Below are positions 1,599 through 15,916 of a stretch of DNA of 42,386 nt, in pieces. The stretch is taken from IMG/VR virus record IMGVR_UViG_3300037483_000715, positions 1-42,386 of that record; one strand, given 5' to 3'. The translations under genes were made by a program, and so were the position numbers. This stretch comes from a virus. Its lineage: Duplodnaviria; Caudoviricetes. The first letter of the stretch is position 1. Each line of letters begins with the position of its first letter. Below the pieces are notes generated by a model. It was not told where the DNA came from. It saw only the letters and a list, made by a program, of their open reading frames with translations, and ran no database searches.

Positions 1599-2339
1599 TT
1601 AAAGTCTGATTGCCTCCTGTTTTGTTAAAGATTCCCACCTTTCTATGATGATTTGGACGTATTTTGGGTCCAATTCCATCAAATATGCTCTTCTTTCTGT
1701 GTTTTCGCATGCGATTAGTGTGCTTCCTGATCCTCCGAATAAATCCAACACGATGTCTTTCTTATCTGAGCTGTTTTCGATTGCTTTTTGAATCAAGGCC
1801 ACTGGTTTCTGAGTCGGATGGACATACTTGCCTGTTGCTCTTCTTTTGAAAAACCATATATCTGTTTGACCTCGGCTTCCTCTGAATTTCTTTTCTTCAT
1901 AGTAATAGTACATCATTGGCTCGTATGCTGAATGATAATCTCTTGCTAAGATTGAGAATCCGTTTTTTACCCATATGATGTCTGTTGGTCTTATTTTTCT
2001 GTGTTTTTGGACCCATTCGTACATTCCGTTGCTTTGATTTGTTCCGTGGCACATGTAGACTGCTCCTTTGCAGATTCCTGTATCTAATAAGTCCATGACT
2101 TTTGTTATTTCGAAGTTTGTGTCATTCATGATTCGTCCGAGCATTTTCTGACTTCTTCCACCTTTTCTTCTTTCTTCCGGGCAGTAATCAACATTGTAAG
2201 GCGGATCTGTCCAGACCATATCTGCTTTTTGTCCGTCAAGTAATTTTTGAACGTCAATTAAGCTTAGTGAATCTCCACACATTAATCTGTGTTGTCCAAG
2301 AATGAATAAATCTCCCTTTTTTATCTCAGTCTGGTCCAT
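1599..2339 (-). CDS. DNA amino-methyltransferase (N6_N4_Mtase, beta class, likely m6A)
   Basis: HRLMCGDS, DPPY, HPTQKP, DLFGGSGSTL; start moved to MDQTEI after a purine-rich SD-like run. Confidence 0.92.
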   Translation of the reverse strand: MDQTEIKKGDLFILGQHRLMCGDSLSLIDVQKLLDGQKADMVWTDPPYNVDYCPEERRKGGRSQKMLGRIMNDTNFEITKVMDLLDTGICKGAVYMCHGTNQSNGMYEWVQKHRKIRPTDIIWVKNGFSILARDYHSAYEPMMYYYYEEKKFRGSRGQTDIWFFKRRATGKYVHPTQKPVALIQKAIENSSDKKDIVLDLFGGSGSTLIACENTERRAYLMELDPKYVQIIIERWESLTKQEAIRL

Positions 2340-2661
2340 CTTCCCCTCCGAATTCTTCCTGAGGGCTTTCTGGTTGCACTTTTTCTTCTGAGTCGTATGG
2401 AATAACCTTAAAATCAATTTTAGCCCCTGTTTGCTGTTCAATCAATTCTTTTGTCTGAATTACCACTTCTGGCACAATGTACCCTGTGTTAGGTATATCT
2501 TTTACATGCAATGTAGCTTCGATTGTTGGTCTTTGAAATAATTCGTTGGGAATTTCAATATTCAATTGCATTGCGATCTCGTTCCAACTGAGTCCTGGCT
2601 TACTTTTTCTAATCTTAACAATCCCATTCTTATTGATCACTAACCATTGTTTGACTTTCAT
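2326..2661 (-). CDS. Hypothetical protein
   Basis: GGAGG SD, overlaps both neighbours. Confidence 0.65.
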   Translation of the reverse strand: MKVKQWLVINKNGIVKIRKSKPGLSWNEIAMQLNIEIPNELFQRPTIEATLHVKDIPNTGYIVPEVVIQTKELIEQQTGAKIDFKVIPYDSEEKVQPESPQEEFGGEDGPD

Positions 2662-3991
2662 TTTGCACCTCCCTCTTGATTATCTCGAATTTTGCCTCAG
2701 GTTTGTAGATGAGATATCTCTCGATCGCGACATTGATGTAATTTGGATCAAGTTCGATTCCATAGAATTTTCTCTTTAATTGATCTGTTGCGATCATTGT
2801 TGTTCCACTTCCTGTGAATGGATCAAGTATCTTTTCTCCTTCAAAACTAAAAAATCTTATGCAATTGAATGGCAGTTGCACTGGAAAGGGCGCTGGATGA
2901 TCTCCTGAGAGATGTCCCTCTGTGTTGAATTCCCACACATTTCCTGAGTATTTGCTGATCAGGATGTTTGGAATTTGTTCGTCACGTTTCTTTTCAGGTG
3001 ATCCTGATGTTGTGTAAGTCAGCATGTGATCGTAGAATCTTGGATTGTCATCTGTTGAGTATAATTGAATGATCTCTGTTTGGACTTTTGGTTTGTAGTA
3101 TCTTGGAAATGGATTCTTTGTGTTTGTTCCTCTCGCAGCTCCGAGTGGTTTCATCCAATAGATGTTTCTGAAAAAAGTATAATCCAATTCTGCCAATAAG
3201 TTGTGATAGTCTGCTTGCAAGTTCATTGGTCCCCATTCTCTTCCGATATTTACACAGATGAATCTTCCTTCTGTTCCTTTTGGCATGAAGTTTTTGACAT
3301 TCTCGAAAACTGATTTTATCATTTTTAGATAATCTTTATAGTTTTGATTGTCCTGGTACTTTCCGTATTTGATGTCCAAGTTGTAAGGAGGACTTGTCAC
3401 ACATAAATCGATTTGATTGTCCCCGATCAGTTTTTCGAAGTTTTCGACCTTTGATGAATCTCCACAGATTATTCTGTGTCCGTCAATTTCTATTATGTCC
3501 CCTTCATGAATGTCGTATTTGTTTTTGACATCGAATTTGTCTTCTTGTGATTTTGCGAACATTGCATTCTTCTCTTCGTCTTTTAGTCCGAGCAAATAAT
3601 TGATCTCTGTTGTGTCGAATCCTGTTATACTGAGTAAGTCTTCATTATGTTGATCAATCTGTGAAAGCAATTCTATTAATTTGTCTTCTTCGAATTCTCC
3701 TCCGATCTTGTTCATTGCAAGGTTTAATGCTTTTTCTTTTGCTTCGTCAAGATCCACTTCAATGCAAGGGACTTCTTTTTGCCCGAGTTCTTTTGCAGCC
3801 TTGATTCTTTGGTGTCCTGAAATAACAATATTTTTTCTTAATTCATTTGAGTTGATCACAACTGGACTTAACCATCCAAATTCTTTCAGAGATTTCTTTA
3901 AGTTGTTCAGATTTTTTTCGTTGATCTTTCTCGGATTGTAATCTGCAATCTTCAATTCTTCAATTTTTTTTAATGATGTGTTTTGTACCAT
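2630..3991 (-). CDS. ParB-like N-terminal domain fused to DNA amino-methyltransferase (SPPY, possibly m4C)
   Basis: ADYNPRKI...ISGHQRIKAA (ParB-N); TSPPYN, HPAPFP, DPFTGSGTT. Confidence 0.92.
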   Translation of the reverse strand: MVQNTSLKKIEELKIADYNPRKINEKNLNNLKKSLKEFGWLSPVVINSNELRKNIVISGHQRIKAAKELGQKEVPCIEVDLDEAKEKALNLAMNKIGGEFEEDKLIELLSQIDQHNEDLLSITGFDTTEINYLLGLKDEEKNAMFAKSQEDKFDVKNKYDIHEGDIIEIDGHRIICGDSSKVENFEKLIGDNQIDLCVTSPPYNLDIKYGKYQDNQNYKDYLKMIKSVFENVKNFMPKGTEGRFICVNIGREWGPMNLQADYHNLLAELDYTFFRNIYWMKPLGAARGTNTKNPFPRYYKPKVQTEIIQLYSTDDNPRFYDHMLTYTTSGSPEKKRDEQIPNILISKYSGNVWEFNTEGHLSGDHPAPFPVQLPFNCIRFFSFEGEKILDPFTGSGTTMIATDQLKRKFYGIELDPNYINVAIERYLIYKPEAKFEIIKREVQNESQTMVSDQ

Positions 3992-5426: not shown

Positions 5427-5497
5427 TTCCGATAAGTAGAGTTGAACTACTGTTTCAGGATCATGAGTCCTGCGTCCTGCCGTTAGACGATATCGGA
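5427..5497 (-). tRNA. tRNA with CAU anticodon (elongator Met or Ile2), no encoded CCA
   Basis: Cloverleaf: acceptor TCCGATA/TATCGGA, D arm GTCT-AACGGCA-GGAC, anticodon stem CAGGA/TCCTG with loop CTCATGA, T arm AGTAG-TTCAACT-CTACT. Confidence 0.88.
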
Positions 5498-5859
5498 TTA
5501 ATTGTCACAACAGCAAATTCTTGCACACTTTGGACTTTTCGGATTGTCTGTTCGAGTATGAATTTATCATCGATTTCTAATCCTTCAAATACTGAATCAA
5601 TTAAGAATTTCTCTCTGTTTGCAACATCTTTCTTTTTTATTGATCCATCTTTACATCTCCAATTTTCATAAATTTCTGTAATGACTTTTAGTCCTTGCTC
5701 GTATGGTCCGAGATGTCCCAATGGAACTTCTTTGCAGATCTGCACGATCTCTTTTCGAAGTTTCTTCGCTTCTGTCTTCATAATCTTCATATTGCCTTTG
5801 TGCCAATACAAATGATTAATCGTTGGTGTTTTGAAAGGTATTTTTATTTTTGTTTCCAT
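5461..5859 (-). CDS. rusA: RusA-like Holliday junction resolvase
   Basis: PTINHLY...KKDVANREKFLIDSV...IDDKFI, the RusA catalytic pattern. Confidence 0.8.
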   Translation of the reverse strand: METKIKIPFKTPTINHLYWHKGNMKIMKTEAKKLRKEIVQICKEVPLGHLGPYEQGLKVITEIYENWRCKDGSIKKKDVANREKFLIDSVFEGLEIDDKFILEQTIRKVQSVQEFAVVTINPISSNGRTQDS

Positions 5860-8856: not shown

Positions 8857-9040
8857 TTGCTTTCTCCCATAATTTAATTTTTTCCACAATTGCATTGTGT
8901 ACTTTGTTCATTTCTTCCACGTCGGTGCTTAAAATCTTAAATTCAAAATTGTAGCCCTTCGTATTTTTTATGATCTTGATTGATGGATTCTGTTGAATCA
9001 TTCCCTCAAAATCGTTTGTTTCATTTTTGTTTTCTTCCAT
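8840..9040 (-). CDS. Hypothetical protein
   Basis: Start MEENKN directly after the repeated promoter/SD cassette. Confidence 0.65.
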   Translation of the reverse strand: MEENKNETNDFEGMIQQNPSIKIIKNTKGYNFEFKILSTDVEEMNKVHNAIVEKIKLWEKANAEGN

Positions 9041-9093
9041 GTTGTCCTCCTTGTAATTACTTACGTGTATTGCCTTTTTAAAACTTGCTATTG
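9040..9093 (-). promoter_or_regulatory. Repeated early promoter cassette, copy 1
   Basis: TAGCAAGTTTTAAAAAGG (TATA)...GTAATTAC AAGGAGG; 51/54 identical to 11973-12026. Confidence 0.8.
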
Positions 9094-10446: not shown

Positions 10447-11094
10447 TTATGGTTTTGCAAGTTCTGCATCATCTACTTCTTCTGATTCAGGGAGTTCTCC
10501 GTTCTCAGTTTCTTCTTCTGCAGCCTTTGCATTGTTTGTTGCCCATCTCAAAGCTCTTGCGATTGCTCGTGTTTCAGCCATTCTTATGTAATGGATTTTA
10601 ACCATGTCACCACAGTTTTCCTGCGTTGCATCCCCGTAAGCTTCGAATGTCTGTTTAAACATAACTTCTTCATCATCATCTGACACATGTGTAGTTTCAT
10701 TGTTTAAGCATGTTTGAACTGTTGCTTTGAAAATTGCTCTTTTCTTTTCCCAGTCGTTTTCGATCATTTCTGTCTTTATTGACATCCAGTCGAATTTGTC
10801 ATGGGCATCGTTTAGTAAATCTTCGAAGCTTGTCATATCATCTGTGAATGATCCTTTCTCACTTTGCTTTGCTTTTTCTTTTAAAACAAAGTTTACAGCA
10901 TTGAATCCATTCATCTCGAACTCGATTGTGTTTCCTTTCTGAATCACTGTGTCCATTAATCCTTGCAGTGCCTCAGGTTCTCCACTCGTATTGTACCATT
11001 TGTCTGCTTCTTCTGCAGTGATAAATCCGATTTTTCCATCAGCGAGTTTTCCTTTTGAAACAGCTTTGATTGTTCTGATTAATTTATCTGCCAT
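10447..11094 (-). CDS. Rad52/Sak-like single-strand annealing protein
   Basis: FKATV...FEAYGDA...RMAETRAIARALR motif, acidic C-terminal tail. Confidence 0.65.
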   Translation of the reverse strand: MADKLIRTIKAVSKGKLADGKIGFITAEEADKWYNTSGEPEALQGLMDTVIQKGNTIEFEMNGFNAVNFVLKEKAKQSEKGSFTDDMTSFEDLLNDAHDKFDWMSIKTEMIENDWEKKRAIFKATVQTCLNNETTHVSDDDEEVMFKQTFEAYGDATQENCGDMVKIHYIRMAETRAIARALRWATNNAKAAEEETENGELPESEEVDDAELAKP

Positions 11095-11972: not shown

Positions 11973-12026
11973 TGTTGTCCTCCTTGTAATTACACACGAG
12001 TATTGCCTTTTTAAAACTTGCTATTG
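11973..12026 (-). promoter_or_regulatory. Repeated early promoter cassette, copy 2
   Basis: Near-identical to 9040-9093. Confidence 0.8.
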
Positions 12027-12586: not shown

Positions 12587-13132
12587 TTAAACTTTGTGGT
12601 TTTCGTTAAATATCACTTCCAACTCTGTGAATCCTTCCAATTTCACATCTCCTTCGAATCCGATTGAGAGTTCATCTCTTGCCCATATTCCGATTTTATC
12701 TTCATTCAATCCATGATAATCTCCAAGACCACGTCCATTTCCAAGTGCAGTCAATAAAGGCAGAGGATTTTGTTTCCATCCATCTTCATCTACTCCTGGT
12801 TGTTTTGAAAAAAGCACGTACTGTTTCTTTGTGTGATTAATCAAAACAGCATTATTCTGCTCTTTCTCTTTCATCTTCTCTGATGGTTTGATTTTGTCTT
12901 TGTCTTTGACTTTATCGTAGTAGTCTTCTTCTCCTTCTTCGTCGAAGTAATCTCCACACCATACGATCTTTTCTTTGTTCCAAGGCCCACCTTTGACCAT
13001 TAATTGCATTACTGCTCCGAGAAAATCGTTTCCTATCCACGAATGTTCTGTGAGTTTCAATCCATTTCCGTAATCATTTGCATTTAACCATTGTCCGTTA
13101 TTCAGATTGATTGGCTTGTAGTATTGTCCCAT
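12587..13132 (-). CDS. Hypothetical phage protein
   Basis: GGAGG SD; MGQYY start; W/G-rich motifs. Confidence 0.7.
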   Translation of the reverse strand: MGQYYKPINLNNGQWLNANDYGNGLKLTEHSWIGNDFLGAVMQLMVKGGPWNKEKIVWCGDYFDEEGEEDYYDKVKDKDKIKPSEKMKEKEQNNAVLINHTKKQYVLFSKQPGVDEDGWKQNPLPLLTALGNGRGLGDYHGLNEDKIGIWARDELSIGFEGDVKLEGFTELEVIFNENHKV

Positions 13133-14063
13133 TTTTAACCTCCTGTTTGGATTTATTTTTTTCCTCTTTAAAAGAGCATGTATGCCAAGTTTCTTCTTCC
13201 TTGGTCCTGAATCTGCATCTTGGGTCTTTTTCGATTCTTTCGAGCAGTGATTTATTTTTCCATCGTTTGATTCTTTCTTTAAAAAAAGAAGGATGTTGAA
13301 TTGTCCCTGGTGTTGCGGCGATATGAAATGATGGTCTTTCTCCCTCGAATTTCATTGCGTCGACTCTGAATCCAATTAAGATCATTCTCACTCTGTGTTG
13401 AGGCACTCCATAATTTGCAGCATCGAGTAAATCCCACGTTATATTGTATCCGAGATTCGCGAAATCTTCACAGATCTGTTGAATTACTTCTCCTTTGCCC
13501 ATAGAGACGATCCCTTGCACATTTTCTCCCATTATGCTTGCTGGTTTAAGGTCATCTGTAATTCTTACAAATTGTTTGTATAATTTGTTTCTTGGGTCAT
13601 CCATCATTCTTCTGCCGGCAAGACTGAAACCTTGACATGGAAATCCTCCTGAAATAATTGAACATTCTCCGATTTTTAGATTTCCTTTTTCCATTATCTC
13701 TTGTGATGTGACTTCGCAGATATCTCTTTCCATGATCACTGGCTCTTCATCGTGGTACCATGTGATTTGTTTCTTCATTTCTTCTTTTGAATTCCAGCAA
13801 AGTTTTCCTTCATGATCTTTCCTCTCTTTCAGATATTTCCATAAAAAATTATGTCTTAATGTTTCGCATGCAGAATGTTCCCATTCGATCATAATTCTTG
13901 TTTGAATTCCTGCCTCTGCAAATCCGAGATCTAATCCTCCACATCCTGAAAATAAAGAAACATGTGTTTTTATTGGTCCTTTGCCGATTCTTTGTTGAAT
14001 GTCTTCGGAATCAAGATCGAGCTTTCCCAAGTATTTTTCTCCGAGATGAATTTGTTTATCCAT
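13098..14063 (-). CDS. C5-cytosine DNA methyltransferase (motifs I-VIII only)
   Basis: SLFSGCGG, GGFPCQGFS, ENV, YGVPQHRVR; no obvious C-terminal motifs IX/X. Confidence 0.88.
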   Translation of the reverse strand: MDKQIHLGEKYLGKLDLDSEDIQQRIGKGPIKTHVSLFSGCGGLDLGFAEAGIQTRIMIEWEHSACETLRHNFLWKYLKERKDHEGKLCWNSKEEMKKQITWYHDEEPVIMERDICEVTSQEIMEKGNLKIGECSIISGGFPCQGFSLAGRRMMDDPRNKLYKQFVRITDDLKPASIMGENVQGIVSMGKGEVIQQICEDFANLGYNITWDLLDAANYGVPQHRVRMILIGFRVDAMKFEGERPSFHIAATPGTIQHPSFFKERIKRWKNKSLLERIEKDPRCRFRTKEEETWHTCSFKEEKNKSKQEVKNGTILQANQSE

Positions 14064-14592
14064 TTATGAACTCCTGTAAATTTTTAAATTCGTGAACTTC
14101 TTCTTGATAAGTTATGTAAACTCCGAGATTTCCTTTTGGTTTCAAATAAGTTCCGTCTTTTCTTTCGATCTTATCTTTGTTAAATCTAAAAACTGCTTTT
14201 TGTTTGAATTCTTCTTTTGTCATCCATCCACAGATGAATCCTCGATTGATTATTTTATTGAAGCTACAGAATAAATAACCTGCATTTGGGTTGTTGTATT
14301 GACTCTCATTAACATTGTGCGCGTAATCTTCCAACACATCACTCACTGATCTCACGACTGTTTTGACATCCCACATTTGACCTCTCCATTTTACATCTCC
14401 TTCATCAGGTTTGTCTGTTTTTGGTCGTGGTTGATTTAATAAATCACAGATCACAGTTTCCATCAAAAGTCCTCCAAACATTCTATCGTATTCTTTTCCG
14501 AAGTCTTCACGTTCAAATCCTAAAACCCATCCTCTTACAATTTTATCTGCATATTTTATCTGTTCTTTTGTTGGAAAAATCTCAATAATCAT
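14056..14592 (-). CDS. PD-(D/E)XK nuclease, restriction endonuclease-like
   Basis: GLLMET...PDEGDV......WDVKT; directly upstream of the C5 MTase. Confidence 0.6.
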   Translation of the reverse strand: MIIEIFPTKEQIKYADKIVRGWVLGFEREDFGKEYDRMFGGLLMETVICDLLNQPRPKTDKPDEGDVKWRGQMWDVKTVVRSVSDVLEDYAHNVNESQYNNPNAGYLFCSFNKIINRGFICGWMTKEEFKQKAVFRFNKDKIERKDGTYLKPKGNLGVYITYQEEVHEFKNLQEFING

Positions 14593-15035
14593 ACTCCTGA
14601 CCTCCTGATTTGCTCTGTGGCTTCTGTGATTAATTCTATAGCTGGGACTCCTGTCATTCTTTGCCATGTTCTTGCGAGTCTTTCTGTGTTTTCAAATTCT
14701 TTGTTTAAAATATTTCTTTTCAGGATGTTGAGTGCCTGGTCTTTCTTTTGTGATTTTAATTTTTTCCATTCTTCAAATTGTTTTATTTGTTTTGTTAAAA
14801 TTCCGACTTGATTATCAATCTCTTCGATTTGTAATGCGAGTTTTTTTCTGTCTGCGAGAAGCATGTTAAGTTTGTTTGCAGGGTTGATTCCTGCATCCCA
14901 ATTCCTGACGAGAAATCCGATCATGTCGCTTTGAGATAATCCCTCGAACTCTGCGATCTCTTTTAATTGATTTGGAACTCCTGTTTCGAGAGAGTAGCTC
15001 TTCATCTCCCAATCCTTTGTTTTTGTTTTCGGCAT
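14589..15035 (-). CDS. Ribbon-helix-helix-like plus coiled-coil protein
   Basis: KSYSLETGVPNQLKEIAEFEGLSQSDMIGFLV is CopG-like; start MPKTK after promoter cassette 3. Confidence 0.6.
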   Translation of the reverse strand: MPKTKTKDWEMKSYSLETGVPNQLKEIAEFEGLSQSDMIGFLVRNWDAGINPANKLNMLLADRKKLALQIEEIDNQVGILTKQIKQFEEWKKLKSQKKDQALNILKRNILNKEFENTERLARTWQRMTGVPAIELITEATEQIRRSGV

Positions 15036-15082
15036 TTGTCCTCCTGAATTACACACGAGTATTCCCTTTTTAAAACTTGCTA
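15036..15082 (-). promoter_or_regulatory. Repeated early promoter cassette, copy 3
   Basis: TAGCAAGTTTTAAAAAGGGAATACTCGTGTGTAATTCAGGAGGACAA. Confidence 0.78.
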
Positions 15083-15098
15083 CAAGTATGTAATTACT

Positions 15099-15233
15099 CA
15101 CACCCCATCATTTCCATTGGACTTTTTTGATTTTTAGATTTCTTTTGTTAAATAATTAAATAATATATTAAATAATTAAATAACAATCAAACAAACACAA
15201 CACAGGAGTTTCCACAGGAAGTCATGGGGTGTG
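15099..15233. other. Putative replication origin: two inverted ORB-like boxes around an AT-rich unwinding element
   Basis: GTCCAATGGAAATGATGGGGT (minus, 15102-15122) and TTCCACAGGAAGTCATGGGGT (plus, 15210-15230); 87-bp spacer containing 36 bp of pure A/T. Confidence 0.7.
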
Positions 15234-15295: not shown

Positions 15296-15916
15296 TTAAT
15301 TAAGAGTTGGGAATTCCCACTCTACATCTTCATCGTCAAAGTCGCCCTCATCGAATAAGACATTTGCGCTCACAAGAAGTGTTTTCTTGTATGCAGTTGC
15401 TTCTCCGTCATTCAAAGTGTATCTCACTTTGATTTCGAATTCAACCACGGCACATTTATCTTCGTCCTCTTCAAGACCGAGCTTCACGATTGTTACATCG
15501 TAATCTTCGACATCAATGTCTTTGAGTTCGTCGAAATCTTCAACATTCCTTTCGAGAAATTTCTCGATCAGTTTGTAGTCGTTTTCTTCAAGCTCTTCAA
15601 CTGCGACGTCGTATGCTTCAGTTTCGAGTTCGTCGATTTCATCAGAATACAAATCTTCCCACAGATCATTGACCTTTTCATTGTCAACGGATTCTGCTTC
15701 TGGAATCTGTATTAACCCTGCGACTTCATTCGCGATTTCAGTCGTGTTCACCTTTTCAGGTGTGGGTATTTTACTGATTACTTGGGCGGTAACTTTGTCT
15801 GCCAATGCCTTCTCATCAACCTTGTTTCCTGCAGCTACGAATATTGAGATCAAACTCAATAAACAAACTAACACAACCAAAGTGATAAATAAACCATTGT
15901 TTTGTTTTTTATCCAT
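15296..15916 (-). CDS. Membrane-anchored acidic protein
   Basis: N-terminal TM (LFITLVVLVCLLSLISIFVAA), D/E-rich ectodomain, own TTTAAA promoter near 15960. Confidence 0.75.
   Translation of the reverse strand: MDKKQNNGLFITLVVLVCLLSLISIFVAAGNKVDEKALADKVTAQVISKIPTPEKVNTTEIANEVAGLIQIPEAESVDNEKVNDLWEDLYSDEIDELETEAYDVAVEELEENDYKLIEKFLERNVEDFDELKDIDVEDYDVTIVKLGLEEDEDKCAVVEFEIKVRYTLNDGEATAYKKTLLVSANVLFDEGDFDDEDVEWEFPTLN

What the first reader, a model, noticed from the sequence alone, without database searches (positions are those of the whole stretch)
15099..15233. Archaeal oriC mimic: inverted ORB boxes around a DUE in a virus with no replication genes
Seen: two 21-bp elements sharing TCCAnnGGAA-n5-GGGGT (15102-15122 minus, 15210-15230 plus) in inverted orientation, G-strings pointing outward. 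They flank an 87-bp spacer with 36 consecutive A/T bases and two TTAAATAATTAAATAA repeats 20 bp apart. Known: archaeal origins are inverted ORBs (TCCA..GGAAA..G-string) bound by Orc1/Cdc6 around an AT-rich unwinding element. From memory, the Aeropyrum ORB CTCCACAGGAAACGGAGGGGT has the same spacing. I find no Orc1/Cdc6, MCM, primase or polymerase gene in this complete genome. Inference: the virus copies the host origin in cis and uses the host initiator and replisome.
Basis: partly seen in the sequence, partly recalled or inferred. Interest (0 to 1): 0.88.

Follow-up and report, generated by a model that had tools for sequence, protein, structure and literature searches.

The report
Host-type replication origin in archaeal virus
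A complete 42-kb tailed virus with no recognisable initiator, helicase or polymerase gene carries a compact copy of the box-spacer-box layout found beside the initiator gene in Pacearchaeota chromosomes, kept at nearly fixed spacing in many relatives, so it likely borrows the host's own Orc1/Cdc6 to start copying its DNA.

Summary
The two boxes share 19 of 23 bases, rank first and second in the genome under matrices built from cellular cdc6-adjacent boxes, and enclose the genome's least stable duplex. Fifteen of 16 related loci keep at least one box. Nine keep the outward-facing pair at 104-108 bp. In the order of a Pacearchaeota-titled genome, 77 of 81 genomes encode Cdc6, and 30 of 30 inverted box pairs upstream of cdc6 have the same polarity (130-423 bp). 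The virus has one P-loop (terminase) and no Orc1, MCM, primase or polymerase hit. The AT core is two 16-bp pseudo-palindromes absent from 40 host loci, a likely operator for that protein. Unrelated small viruses also carry such pairs. Best reading (0.72): a host-Orc1-dependent viral origin, likely gated by the viral protein. Binding, firing and the host are inferred, not shown. Ten literature searches found no described case; the nearest was weak Ori-Finder hits in HHPV4.

The parts
15099..15122 (-). Promoter-proximal ORB-like box (GTCCAATGGAAATGATGGGGT plus GTG), G-run pointing away from the spacer
   Evidence: rank 2 in the genome under both matrices; 19 of 20 identical to a box in G040
15210..15233 (+). 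Promoter-distal ORB-like box (TTCCACAGGAAGTCATGGGGT plus GTG), inverted, G-run pointing outward
   Evidence: rank 1 in the genome; best-conserved block in the ten-row alignment
15123..15209 (.). 87-bp AT-rich spacer, predicted DNA unwinding element
   Evidence: 84% AT; least stable duplex in this genome and in relative G001
15148..15183 (.). Two 16-bp pseudo-palindromes 20 bp apart (15148-15163, 15168-15183); candidate operator of the viral RHH protein (inferred)
   Evidence: motif found in L005, L006, L007, L008, L010, L011, L012, L022 and in 0 of 40 host cdc6-upstream loci
15067..15082 (-). Archaeal-type BRE plus TATA box (TAGCAAG-TTTTAAAAA) of the downstream gene; same promoter block repeated at 9040-9093 and 11973-12026
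   Evidence: sequence, repeat family D4, conserved TTTWWAAA in all ten aligned rows; BRE/TATA naming is from established knowledge
14589..15035 (-). 148-aa ribbon-helix-helix (CopG-like) plus long coiled-coil protein; first early gene, in the position that cdc6 holds in host origins
   Evidence: 33 proteins, 82 clusters; RHH_1 in 12 of 32 members, best E 4e-4; model pLDDT 81, top fold hits CopG, E 0.34, prob 1.0
15296..15916 (-). 206-aa acidic protein with an N-terminal hydrophobic stretch; last gene before the element, followed by a T-rich tract
   Evidence: same neighbour in L001, L004, L006
10447..11094 (-). Context: predicted Rad52-like single-strand annealing protein, shared by most relatives; bears on the recombination rival
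   Evidence: model; top fold hits Rad52, E 1.2e-3, prob 0.99; 281 homologs
5461..5859 (-). Context: RusA-like Holliday junction resolvase
   Evidence: Pfam RusA above cut-off, PHROG 34

Best explanation
The 135-bp element is an inverted pair of ORB-type boxes around the genome's least stable duplex, and it likely works as the virus's replication origin: host Orc1/Cdc6 would bind both boxes and load the host MCM helicase between them, and the host replisome would copy the circular genome. The virus supplies no recognisable initiator, helicase, primase or polymerase. The layout copies the host cassette (box, AT spacer, box, promoter, cdc6) in compact form, with a viral CopG-like RHH/coiled-coil gene in the place of cdc6. 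That protein likely binds the two 16-bp pseudo-palindromes inside the spacer and gates firing (copy-number or timing control) and its own promoter. Shown: sequence, conservation, geometry, match to host cdc6-adjacent boxes, gene content. Inferred: host identity (Pacearchaeota first, Woesearchaeota second), Orc1 binding, MCM loading, firing, the RHH target.
For: (1) The boxes rank 1 and 2 genome-wide and score 25.7 and 23.0 against a host median of 24.7 under the Pacearchaeota-order matrix. (2) A pattern made from viral boxes plus the recalled consensus hit 125 loci in a partial scan of the 185,579-species collection (13 of 64 parts); 121 of the 125 are in archaeal-titled records. Of the 80 loci with 2.5-kb flanks, 35 hold a cdc6 (6 of 6 tested confirmed by Pfam). 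(4) 77 of 81 of these genomes encode Cdc6. Upstream of cdc6 in 40 of them, 30 of 30 inverted pairs are G-out around 74-96% AT spacers. (5) Of 16 distinct related loci with upstream DNA, 15 keep a box and 9 keep the G-out pair at 104-108 bp (8 by script; L010 by coordinates), at 54-73% protein identity. Spindle-virus-like L187 has it at 105 bp. (6) No replication genes here; no Cdc6_C or MCM match in complete relative G001. (7) L186 has the same RHH gene two genes before an MCM, which places it in a replication module. (8) Inverted DUE-flanking ORBs orient Orc1 for MCM loading (PMC6742236, section 6 read).
Against: No binding or replication data. The third-codon skew test for bidirectional replication from this point gave nothing (p 0.70 and 0.36). 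The viral spacing (104-108) is shorter than all 30 host pairs (130-423). The promoter-proximal box is degenerate in many relatives (TGGA for TCCA). L005, L007, L021 and L025 show one box only (L019 is cut off), L013 has another layout and L022 has none. Hosts also carry a strong ORB inside a coding gene some kb from cdc6, so ORBs can exist without an adjacent DUE. The host rests on binned viral contigs, and a 57%-identical homolog of the DUF932 gene is labelled Patescibacteria. The virus encodes a Rad52-like protein and RusA, which allow recombination-driven replication. About 25 small ORFs remain unannotated.
Confidence: 0.72

Rival explanations
1. The boxes bind host Orc1 but do not fire. 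They act as a decoy that titrates the single host initiator, or as an Orc1-sensitive switch on the first early promoter that couples viral gene expression to the host cell cycle.
For: The element lies 20 bp from the BRE of the first early gene. Several relatives have a third box overlapping the BRE, as hosts do upstream of cdc6. Lone ORBs sit inside host genes and inside ORFs of other viruses (L041, L042, L044, L046). ORB-cluster titration has been proposed in Haloarcula (PMC4010727 passages) and Orc1 proteins affect transcription (PMC3607249 passages).
Against: A decoy needs neither inverted G-out polarity, nor a 104-108 bp spacing, nor the genome's least stable duplex between the boxes. It leaves the virus with no way to start replication.
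Confidence: 0.1
2. The viral RHH/coiled-coil protein is the true initiator or an obligatory tether: it binds the 16-bp repeats, opens the spacer or recruits host MCM, and the ORBs are helpers (like DnaA boxes in iteron plasmids; recalled).
For: The repeats are virus-specific (0 of 40 host loci) and stay with the RHH gene even where ORBs are lost (L022) or the element lies on the gene's other side (L012). The gene holds the cdc6 position. Its C-terminal 100 residues are strongly conserved.
Against: The model shows only RHH plus helices, with no ATPase, winged helix or nuclease. The regex motif is missing in L001, L004, L013, L016, L020, L021, L025 and L187 while boxes stay. Tiny L043/L047 have box pairs without this gene.
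Confidence: 0.09
3. Replication is mainly recombination-dependent (Rad52-like annealing protein plus RusA, host RadA and replisome). The element is a vestige of a captured oriC or serves only the first round.
For: Rad52-like fold, RusA. Origin-independent replication is reported in Thermococcales (PMC11005403 and PMC5663688, abstracts in listings only).
Against: Boxes and spacing are conserved while flanks diverge and genes are inserted next to them, which argues for continued selection.
Confidence: 0.06
4. The boxes are an operator pair for a viral repressor and resemble ORBs by chance.
For: They lie upstream of a CopG-like gene.
Against: Box variants in relatives track the cellular consensus at positions where the window deviates; the L021 box scores 34.6 bits. 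The pattern occurs in 107 of 121 host-order genomes with control 0.
Confidence: 0.03

Closest known systems
Archaeal chromosomal oriC1-type origin (ORB-DUE-ORB beside orc1/cdc6; Sulfolobus oriC1, Pyrococcus oriC, haloarchaeal oriC1)
   Same: TTCC/GAA core named as perfectly conserved in Pyrococcus (PMC1904270 passages; one viral box has GTCC); G-run; opposite polarity around an AT-rich spacer (PMC6742236 section 6); position just upstream of a promoter.
   Different: On a virus; no adjacent or encoded orc1/cdc6; an RHH gene in its place; shorter spacing than all 30 Pacearchaeota-order pairs; virus-specific 16-bp repeats in the spacer.
Archaeal plasmids, integrated elements and viruses with their own Orc1/Cdc6 or MCM (Haloquadratum PL100; NitGar-E3, NitAQ6f-E1; DHTV-4, DHTV-7)
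   Same: Mobile elements that use the Orc1/MCM route and recruit the host replisome (PMC3119063, PMC6563490, bioRxiv 2025.02.15.638363; passages).
   Different: Those encode the initiator or helicase; this virus carries only the cis site.
HHPV4 'ORB sequences' (pleolipovirus)
   Same: The only statement I found of ORBs in an archaeal virus (PMC5867852 passages).
   Different: Four scattered FIMO hits at p 4e-5 to 4e-4, all on one strand, so no inverted pair, and no mechanism proposed in the passages seen (Table S2).
AGV1 and APBV1 putative origins
   Same: Rep-less archaeal viruses with an inverted repeat around a 68-93 bp spacer in the main intergenic gap.
   Different: Their repeats are not ORBs; the AGV1 authors looked for ORBs and found none. 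Thermococcales viruses also lack classical ORBs (PMC12934983 passages).
CopG-type RHH copy-number regulators
   Same: RHH N-terminus, gene beside a predicted origin and its own promoter.
   Different: CopG represses a rep gene (recalled); here there is no rep gene, and the protein has 100 extra helical residues.

Membership tests
Archaeal ORB-type oriC | Boxes matching the ORB consensus (dyad core plus G-run) | tested here: met
Archaeal ORB-type oriC | Boxes in opposite polarity flanking the unwinding element, same polarity as cellular origins | tested here: met
   G-out in the virus; 30 of 30 G-out in the Pacearchaeota order; 9 G-out against 4 G-in in mixed archaea after dropping 2 self-overlaps
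Archaeal ORB-type oriC | AT-rich, easily unwound spacer | tested here: met
   least stable duplex of the genome by nearest-neighbour energy; computed, not measured
Archaeal ORB-type oriC | Adjacent cognate orc1/cdc6 (or whiP) gene | tested here: not met
   no AAA+ ORF or Cdc6 hit; the adjacent gene is an RHH protein. It works like an oriC but is not a replicator-initiator pair.
Archaeal ORB-type oriC | Spacing within the host range | tested here: inconclusive
   108 bp against 130-423 bp in 30 host-order pairs; one cdc6-adjacent G-out pair elsewhere has a 74-bp spacer (L063); true host unknown
Archaeal ORB-type oriC | Binding by Orc1/Cdc6, MCM loading, initiation at the site | not testable with these tools
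   needs EMSA, loading assay or origin mapping; the codon-skew proxy was uninformative
Virus of Nanoarchaeia (Pacearchaeota/Woesearchaeota) | Host link | tested here: inconclusive
   RHH homologs in 3 of 351 Pacearchaeota-order and 0 of 351 Woesearchaeota-order genomes; a related tailed virus (capsid 52%) in Woesearchaeota-order G399; all are binned viral contigs; one Patescibacteria label; no CRISPR search done
Ribbon-helix-helix (CopG/Arc/MetJ) proteins | N-terminal strand-helix-helix fold | tested here: inconclusive
   weak Pfam RHH_1 matches in 12 of 32 members, best E 4e-4, curated cut-off not shown; fold hits to CopG at rmsd 1.1-1.5 A over about 40 residues but E 0.34
Tailed dsDNA viruses (Caudoviricetes) | Major head protein, portal, head protease, terminase, tail tube | tested here: met

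The most novel reading that the evidence does not exclude
Nanoarchaeia viruses of several unrelated morphotypes (tailed, spindle-like, tiny circular) replicate as minichromosomes with no replication enzyme of their own. In this family a portable 'RHH gene plus mini-oriC' cassette does it: host Orc1 licenses the origin and a viral RHH protein bound inside the unwinding element frees it from once-per-cycle host control. This would be a third archaeal viral replication strategy beside encoding an initiator or a helicase, and the box sequence would serve as a host-prediction mark.
Probability: 0.4. Interest if true: 0.9.

Novelty: new variant of a known kind. Interest (0 to 1): 0.76.

Why it matters
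[quoted passage not shown] A cis-only, host-Orc1 origin gives a concrete answer that can be tested in vitro with two purified proteins and a 135-bp fragment. It supplies a natural minimal origin with tightly conserved spacing for studying MCM loading. It also outlines the predicted oriC of Pacearchaeota and offers a sequence clue to the hosts of uncultured viruses.

Tried and rejected
Paired-box scans of viral contigs: 0 hits and one chance hit inside a coding region (L258), so exact paired patterns are too strict for this family. Third-codon strand skew on either side of the element: no difference; inconclusive in a 42-kb one-strand genome. Capsid protein against 50,697 GenBank phage records: no match. 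PDB sequence searches for ORFs 14056-14586 and 10447-11094: nothing useful. Atlas search for the RHH protein: leads under 0.9 only. DUF932 as hidden initiator: unlikely, since G001 showed no BLAST hit to it. Cluster look-ups for host names on 28 RHH homologs: no organism names. Order search around G005 held only that genome. Sequencing runs: no RNA holder listed; three small-share runs cover only short pieces. No complex prediction was obtained. Dropped before counting relatives: L026 and L027 (34-35% over about 45 aa), L023 and L024 (no upstream DNA), duplicates L009, L014, L015, L017, L028, L029; L012 is treated apart because its element lies downstream. Literature: 10 searches. PMC11529989 and bioRxiv 2025.08.23.671958 had no ORB or Orc1 mention in the main text. 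Subscription papers, including a 2024 DPANN-virus survey that I recall but could not find, and bioRxiv supplements were not seen and may bear on novelty.

Full report
The window is a complete circular tailed-virus genome: a 127-nt end repeat, direct terminal repeats and 100% completeness, with terminase, portal, head protease, major head protein and tail genes. The annotated genes are on the minus strand. The finding lies in a 259-bp gap between the last gene of the structural block (15296-15916) and the first early gene.

Observation. Both boxes, the 87-bp spacer, the 36-nt A/T run and the two 16-bp repeats are as described. The boxes share 19 of 23 positions. The spacer is the least stable duplex at three window sizes here and in complete relative G001.

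Are they ORBs? I scanned the prokaryotic genome collection with a 21-nt pattern drawn from viral boxes and the recalled consensus. The scan stopped after 13 of 64 parts with 125 loci, 121 of them in archaeal-titled records. Of the 80 loci with 2.5-kb flanks, 35 hold a cdc6 gene (Pfam on 6 of them). A matrix from 34 secondary boxes in such loci ranks the window's boxes first and second (28.3 and 24.4 bits; third 20.9; simulated maximum 21.1). This matrix inherits my seed consensus. In the order of G007, whose record is titled Pacearchaeota, 77 of 81 genomes have Cdc6. Upstream of cdc6 in 40 of them I found 85 boxes and 30 inverted pairs, all G-out around 74-96% AT DNA, 130-423 bp apart. The host cassette reads box, AT spacer, box, often a third box, TATA, cdc6. 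In mixed archaea the polarity was 9 G-out to 4 G-in after removing two self-overlaps. Published features agree: TTCC and GAA cores (PMC1904270, passages) and opposite polarity around the DUE for MCM loading (PMC6742236, section 6).

Conservation. The downstream gene has 33 close proteins and 82 clusters. Searches gave 27 loci. After dropping 6 duplicates, 2 spurious hits, 2 without upstream DNA and L012, 16 remain. Fifteen keep at least one box. Nine keep the G-out pair at 104-108 bp start to start: L001, L004, L006, L008, L011, L016, L018, L020 and L010. L016 and L018 are nearly identical, and L010 and L020 share their left half, so independent cases are fewer. L005, L007, L021 and L025 show one box, L019 is cut off, L013 has another layout and L022 has none. 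The promoter-proximal box is often degenerate in its first half, a variant also seen in two host loci (L231, L234). Several relatives add extra boxes. Genes have been inserted between the element and the RHH gene in some relatives, and the element stays intact. In L012 it lies directly downstream of the gene.

Replication genes. Pfam and PHROGs on 63 ORFs and NCBIfam on 30 show methyltransferases, HNH, RusA, DUF932 and HTH proteins only. The only P-loop in a long ORF is the terminase's. A six-frame MCM search is empty for the window, G001 and G003; Cdc6_C was searched in G001-G003 and was empty. The conserved 215-aa early protein folds like Rad52. About 25 small ORFs remain unexplained, but none has the size or motif of a helicase.

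The RHH gene. The 148-aa protein has weak RHH_1 matches in 12 of 32 members, and its model's best matches are CopG (E 0.34, so a lead). It stands where cdc6 stands in the host cassette. The two 16-bp AT repeats are pseudo-palindromes two helical turns apart. My regex finds them in the window and in 8 of 16 RHH-bearing loci tested, in 0 of 4 unrelated viral loci, and in 0 of 40 host loci; the ten-row alignment shows their TAATT cores broadly kept. L022 keeps the motif without ORBs. In L186 the gene precedes an MCM. I infer that the protein binds inside the spacer and gates the origin. This is untested.

Host. The promoters look like BRE-TATA. RHH homologs occur in 3 of 351 Pacearchaeota-order genomes and 0 of 351 Woesearchaeota-order genomes. 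The Rad52-like family matches strongly in 2 of 351 Woesearchaeota-order genomes (3 matches in all) and weakly in 2 of 351 Pacearchaeota-order genomes; G399 holds a related tailed virus. All are binned viral contigs, not proviruses with shown host flanks. Against an archaeal host, a DUF932 homolog is labelled Patescibacteria. Nanoarchaeia is the likely host class; the order is open.

Generality. Two single-box scans of viral contigs gave 28 loci. Five have a strong inverted G-out partner (L032, L043, L047, L276, L278), four more have a box beside an AT-rich tract, and many of the rest are inside ORFs and may be chance. Four earlier notes of this scan report the same idea in other viruses; they are unchecked and are not independent evidence.

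Literature. Ten searches found no described virus using a host ORB origin without its own initiator. AGV1 and Thermococcales viruses lack ORBs (passages). APBV1 has a non-ORB inverted repeat (whole profile read). HHPV4 has four weak scattered hits (passages and Table S2). Elements with their own Orc1 or MCM are known (passages). Subscription papers and bioRxiv supplements were not seen.

Verdict. The feature is real, conserved and built like the predicted host origin, minus the initiator gene. The most likely reading is a host-Orc1-dependent viral origin (0.72), likely regulated by the adjacent RHH protein. Rivals are a decoy or switch (0.10), a viral co-initiator (0.09), recombination-led replication (0.06) and chance (0.03). 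The skew test gave no support, the spacing is shorter than in sampled hosts, and nothing is shown biochemically. New variant of a known kind; interest 0.76.

Noticed in passing
L049, L054, L057, L079, L083, L086, L090, L109, L117, L118, L120, L123, L126: In 13 of 15 translated Pacearchaeota/Woesearchaeota loci the near-perfect ORB lies inside a conserved 189-259 aa coiled-coil plus winged-helix gene (reading S-T/S-G-N-E/D-G-V) and is followed by 4-nt tandem repeats. Many such boxes lie 1-15 kb from cdc6. It recalls WhiP, which binds repeats in its own ORF; homology to WhiP was not tested.
   Followed up: partly
L032, L043, L047 (3.7-kb contigs; L043 has a 144-nt end repeat): Tiny viruses with a strong G-out ORB pair 185 bp apart (about 30 bits each) and no Pfam replication hit in six L047 proteins tested.
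   Followed up: partly
L034, L038 (G003), L269, L272, L276, L278: Other unrelated viral contigs with an ORB beside an AT-rich tract; L276 and L278 have inverted partners at 154 and 246 bp. Of 28 loci from two single-box scans, 5 have a partner of 18 bits or more. Several have a small RHH-looking neighbour gene (by eye only). Complete 19-kb G003 has no Cdc6_C or MCM match.
   Followed up: partly
L041, L042, L044, L046: The exact host-type 20-mer ORB inside open reading frames of four low-GC viral contigs; possible decoy sites.
   Followed up: no
L186:3-2102 (G244:C109): RHH homolog (42%) two genes before an MCM helicase; too little upstream DNA to see whether boxes are lost when MCM is present.
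   Followed up: partly
L022; L187; L188: The RHH gene also occurs in contigs that look like spindle-shaped viruses (by eye). L022 keeps the 16-bp AT motif but has other repeats in place of ORBs.
   Followed up: partly
window 9040-9093, 11973-12026, 15032-15085: One promoter block in three copies, the first two 94% alike; GTAATTAC-like motifs stand before several ribosome-binding sites.
   Followed up: no
window 5427-5497 (minus): tRNA with CAT anticodon overlapping the end of the RusA gene.
   Followed up: no
window 1599-2441, 2630-3991, 13098-14063, 14056-14667: Three DNA methyltransferases (one fused to a ParB-like domain) and a neighbour that looks by eye like a PD-(D/E)xK nuclease without database support.
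   Followed up: no
L187:2712-3761 and L267:10112-11161: Two similar reverse transcriptase genes (RVT_1 shown for the first) in one spindle-like viral contig, each followed by a similar small ORF; possible diversity-generating retroelements.
   Followed up: no
L265:773-815 (G399): A related tailed virus has two ORB-like boxes side by side without a spacer, a different layout.
   Followed up: no
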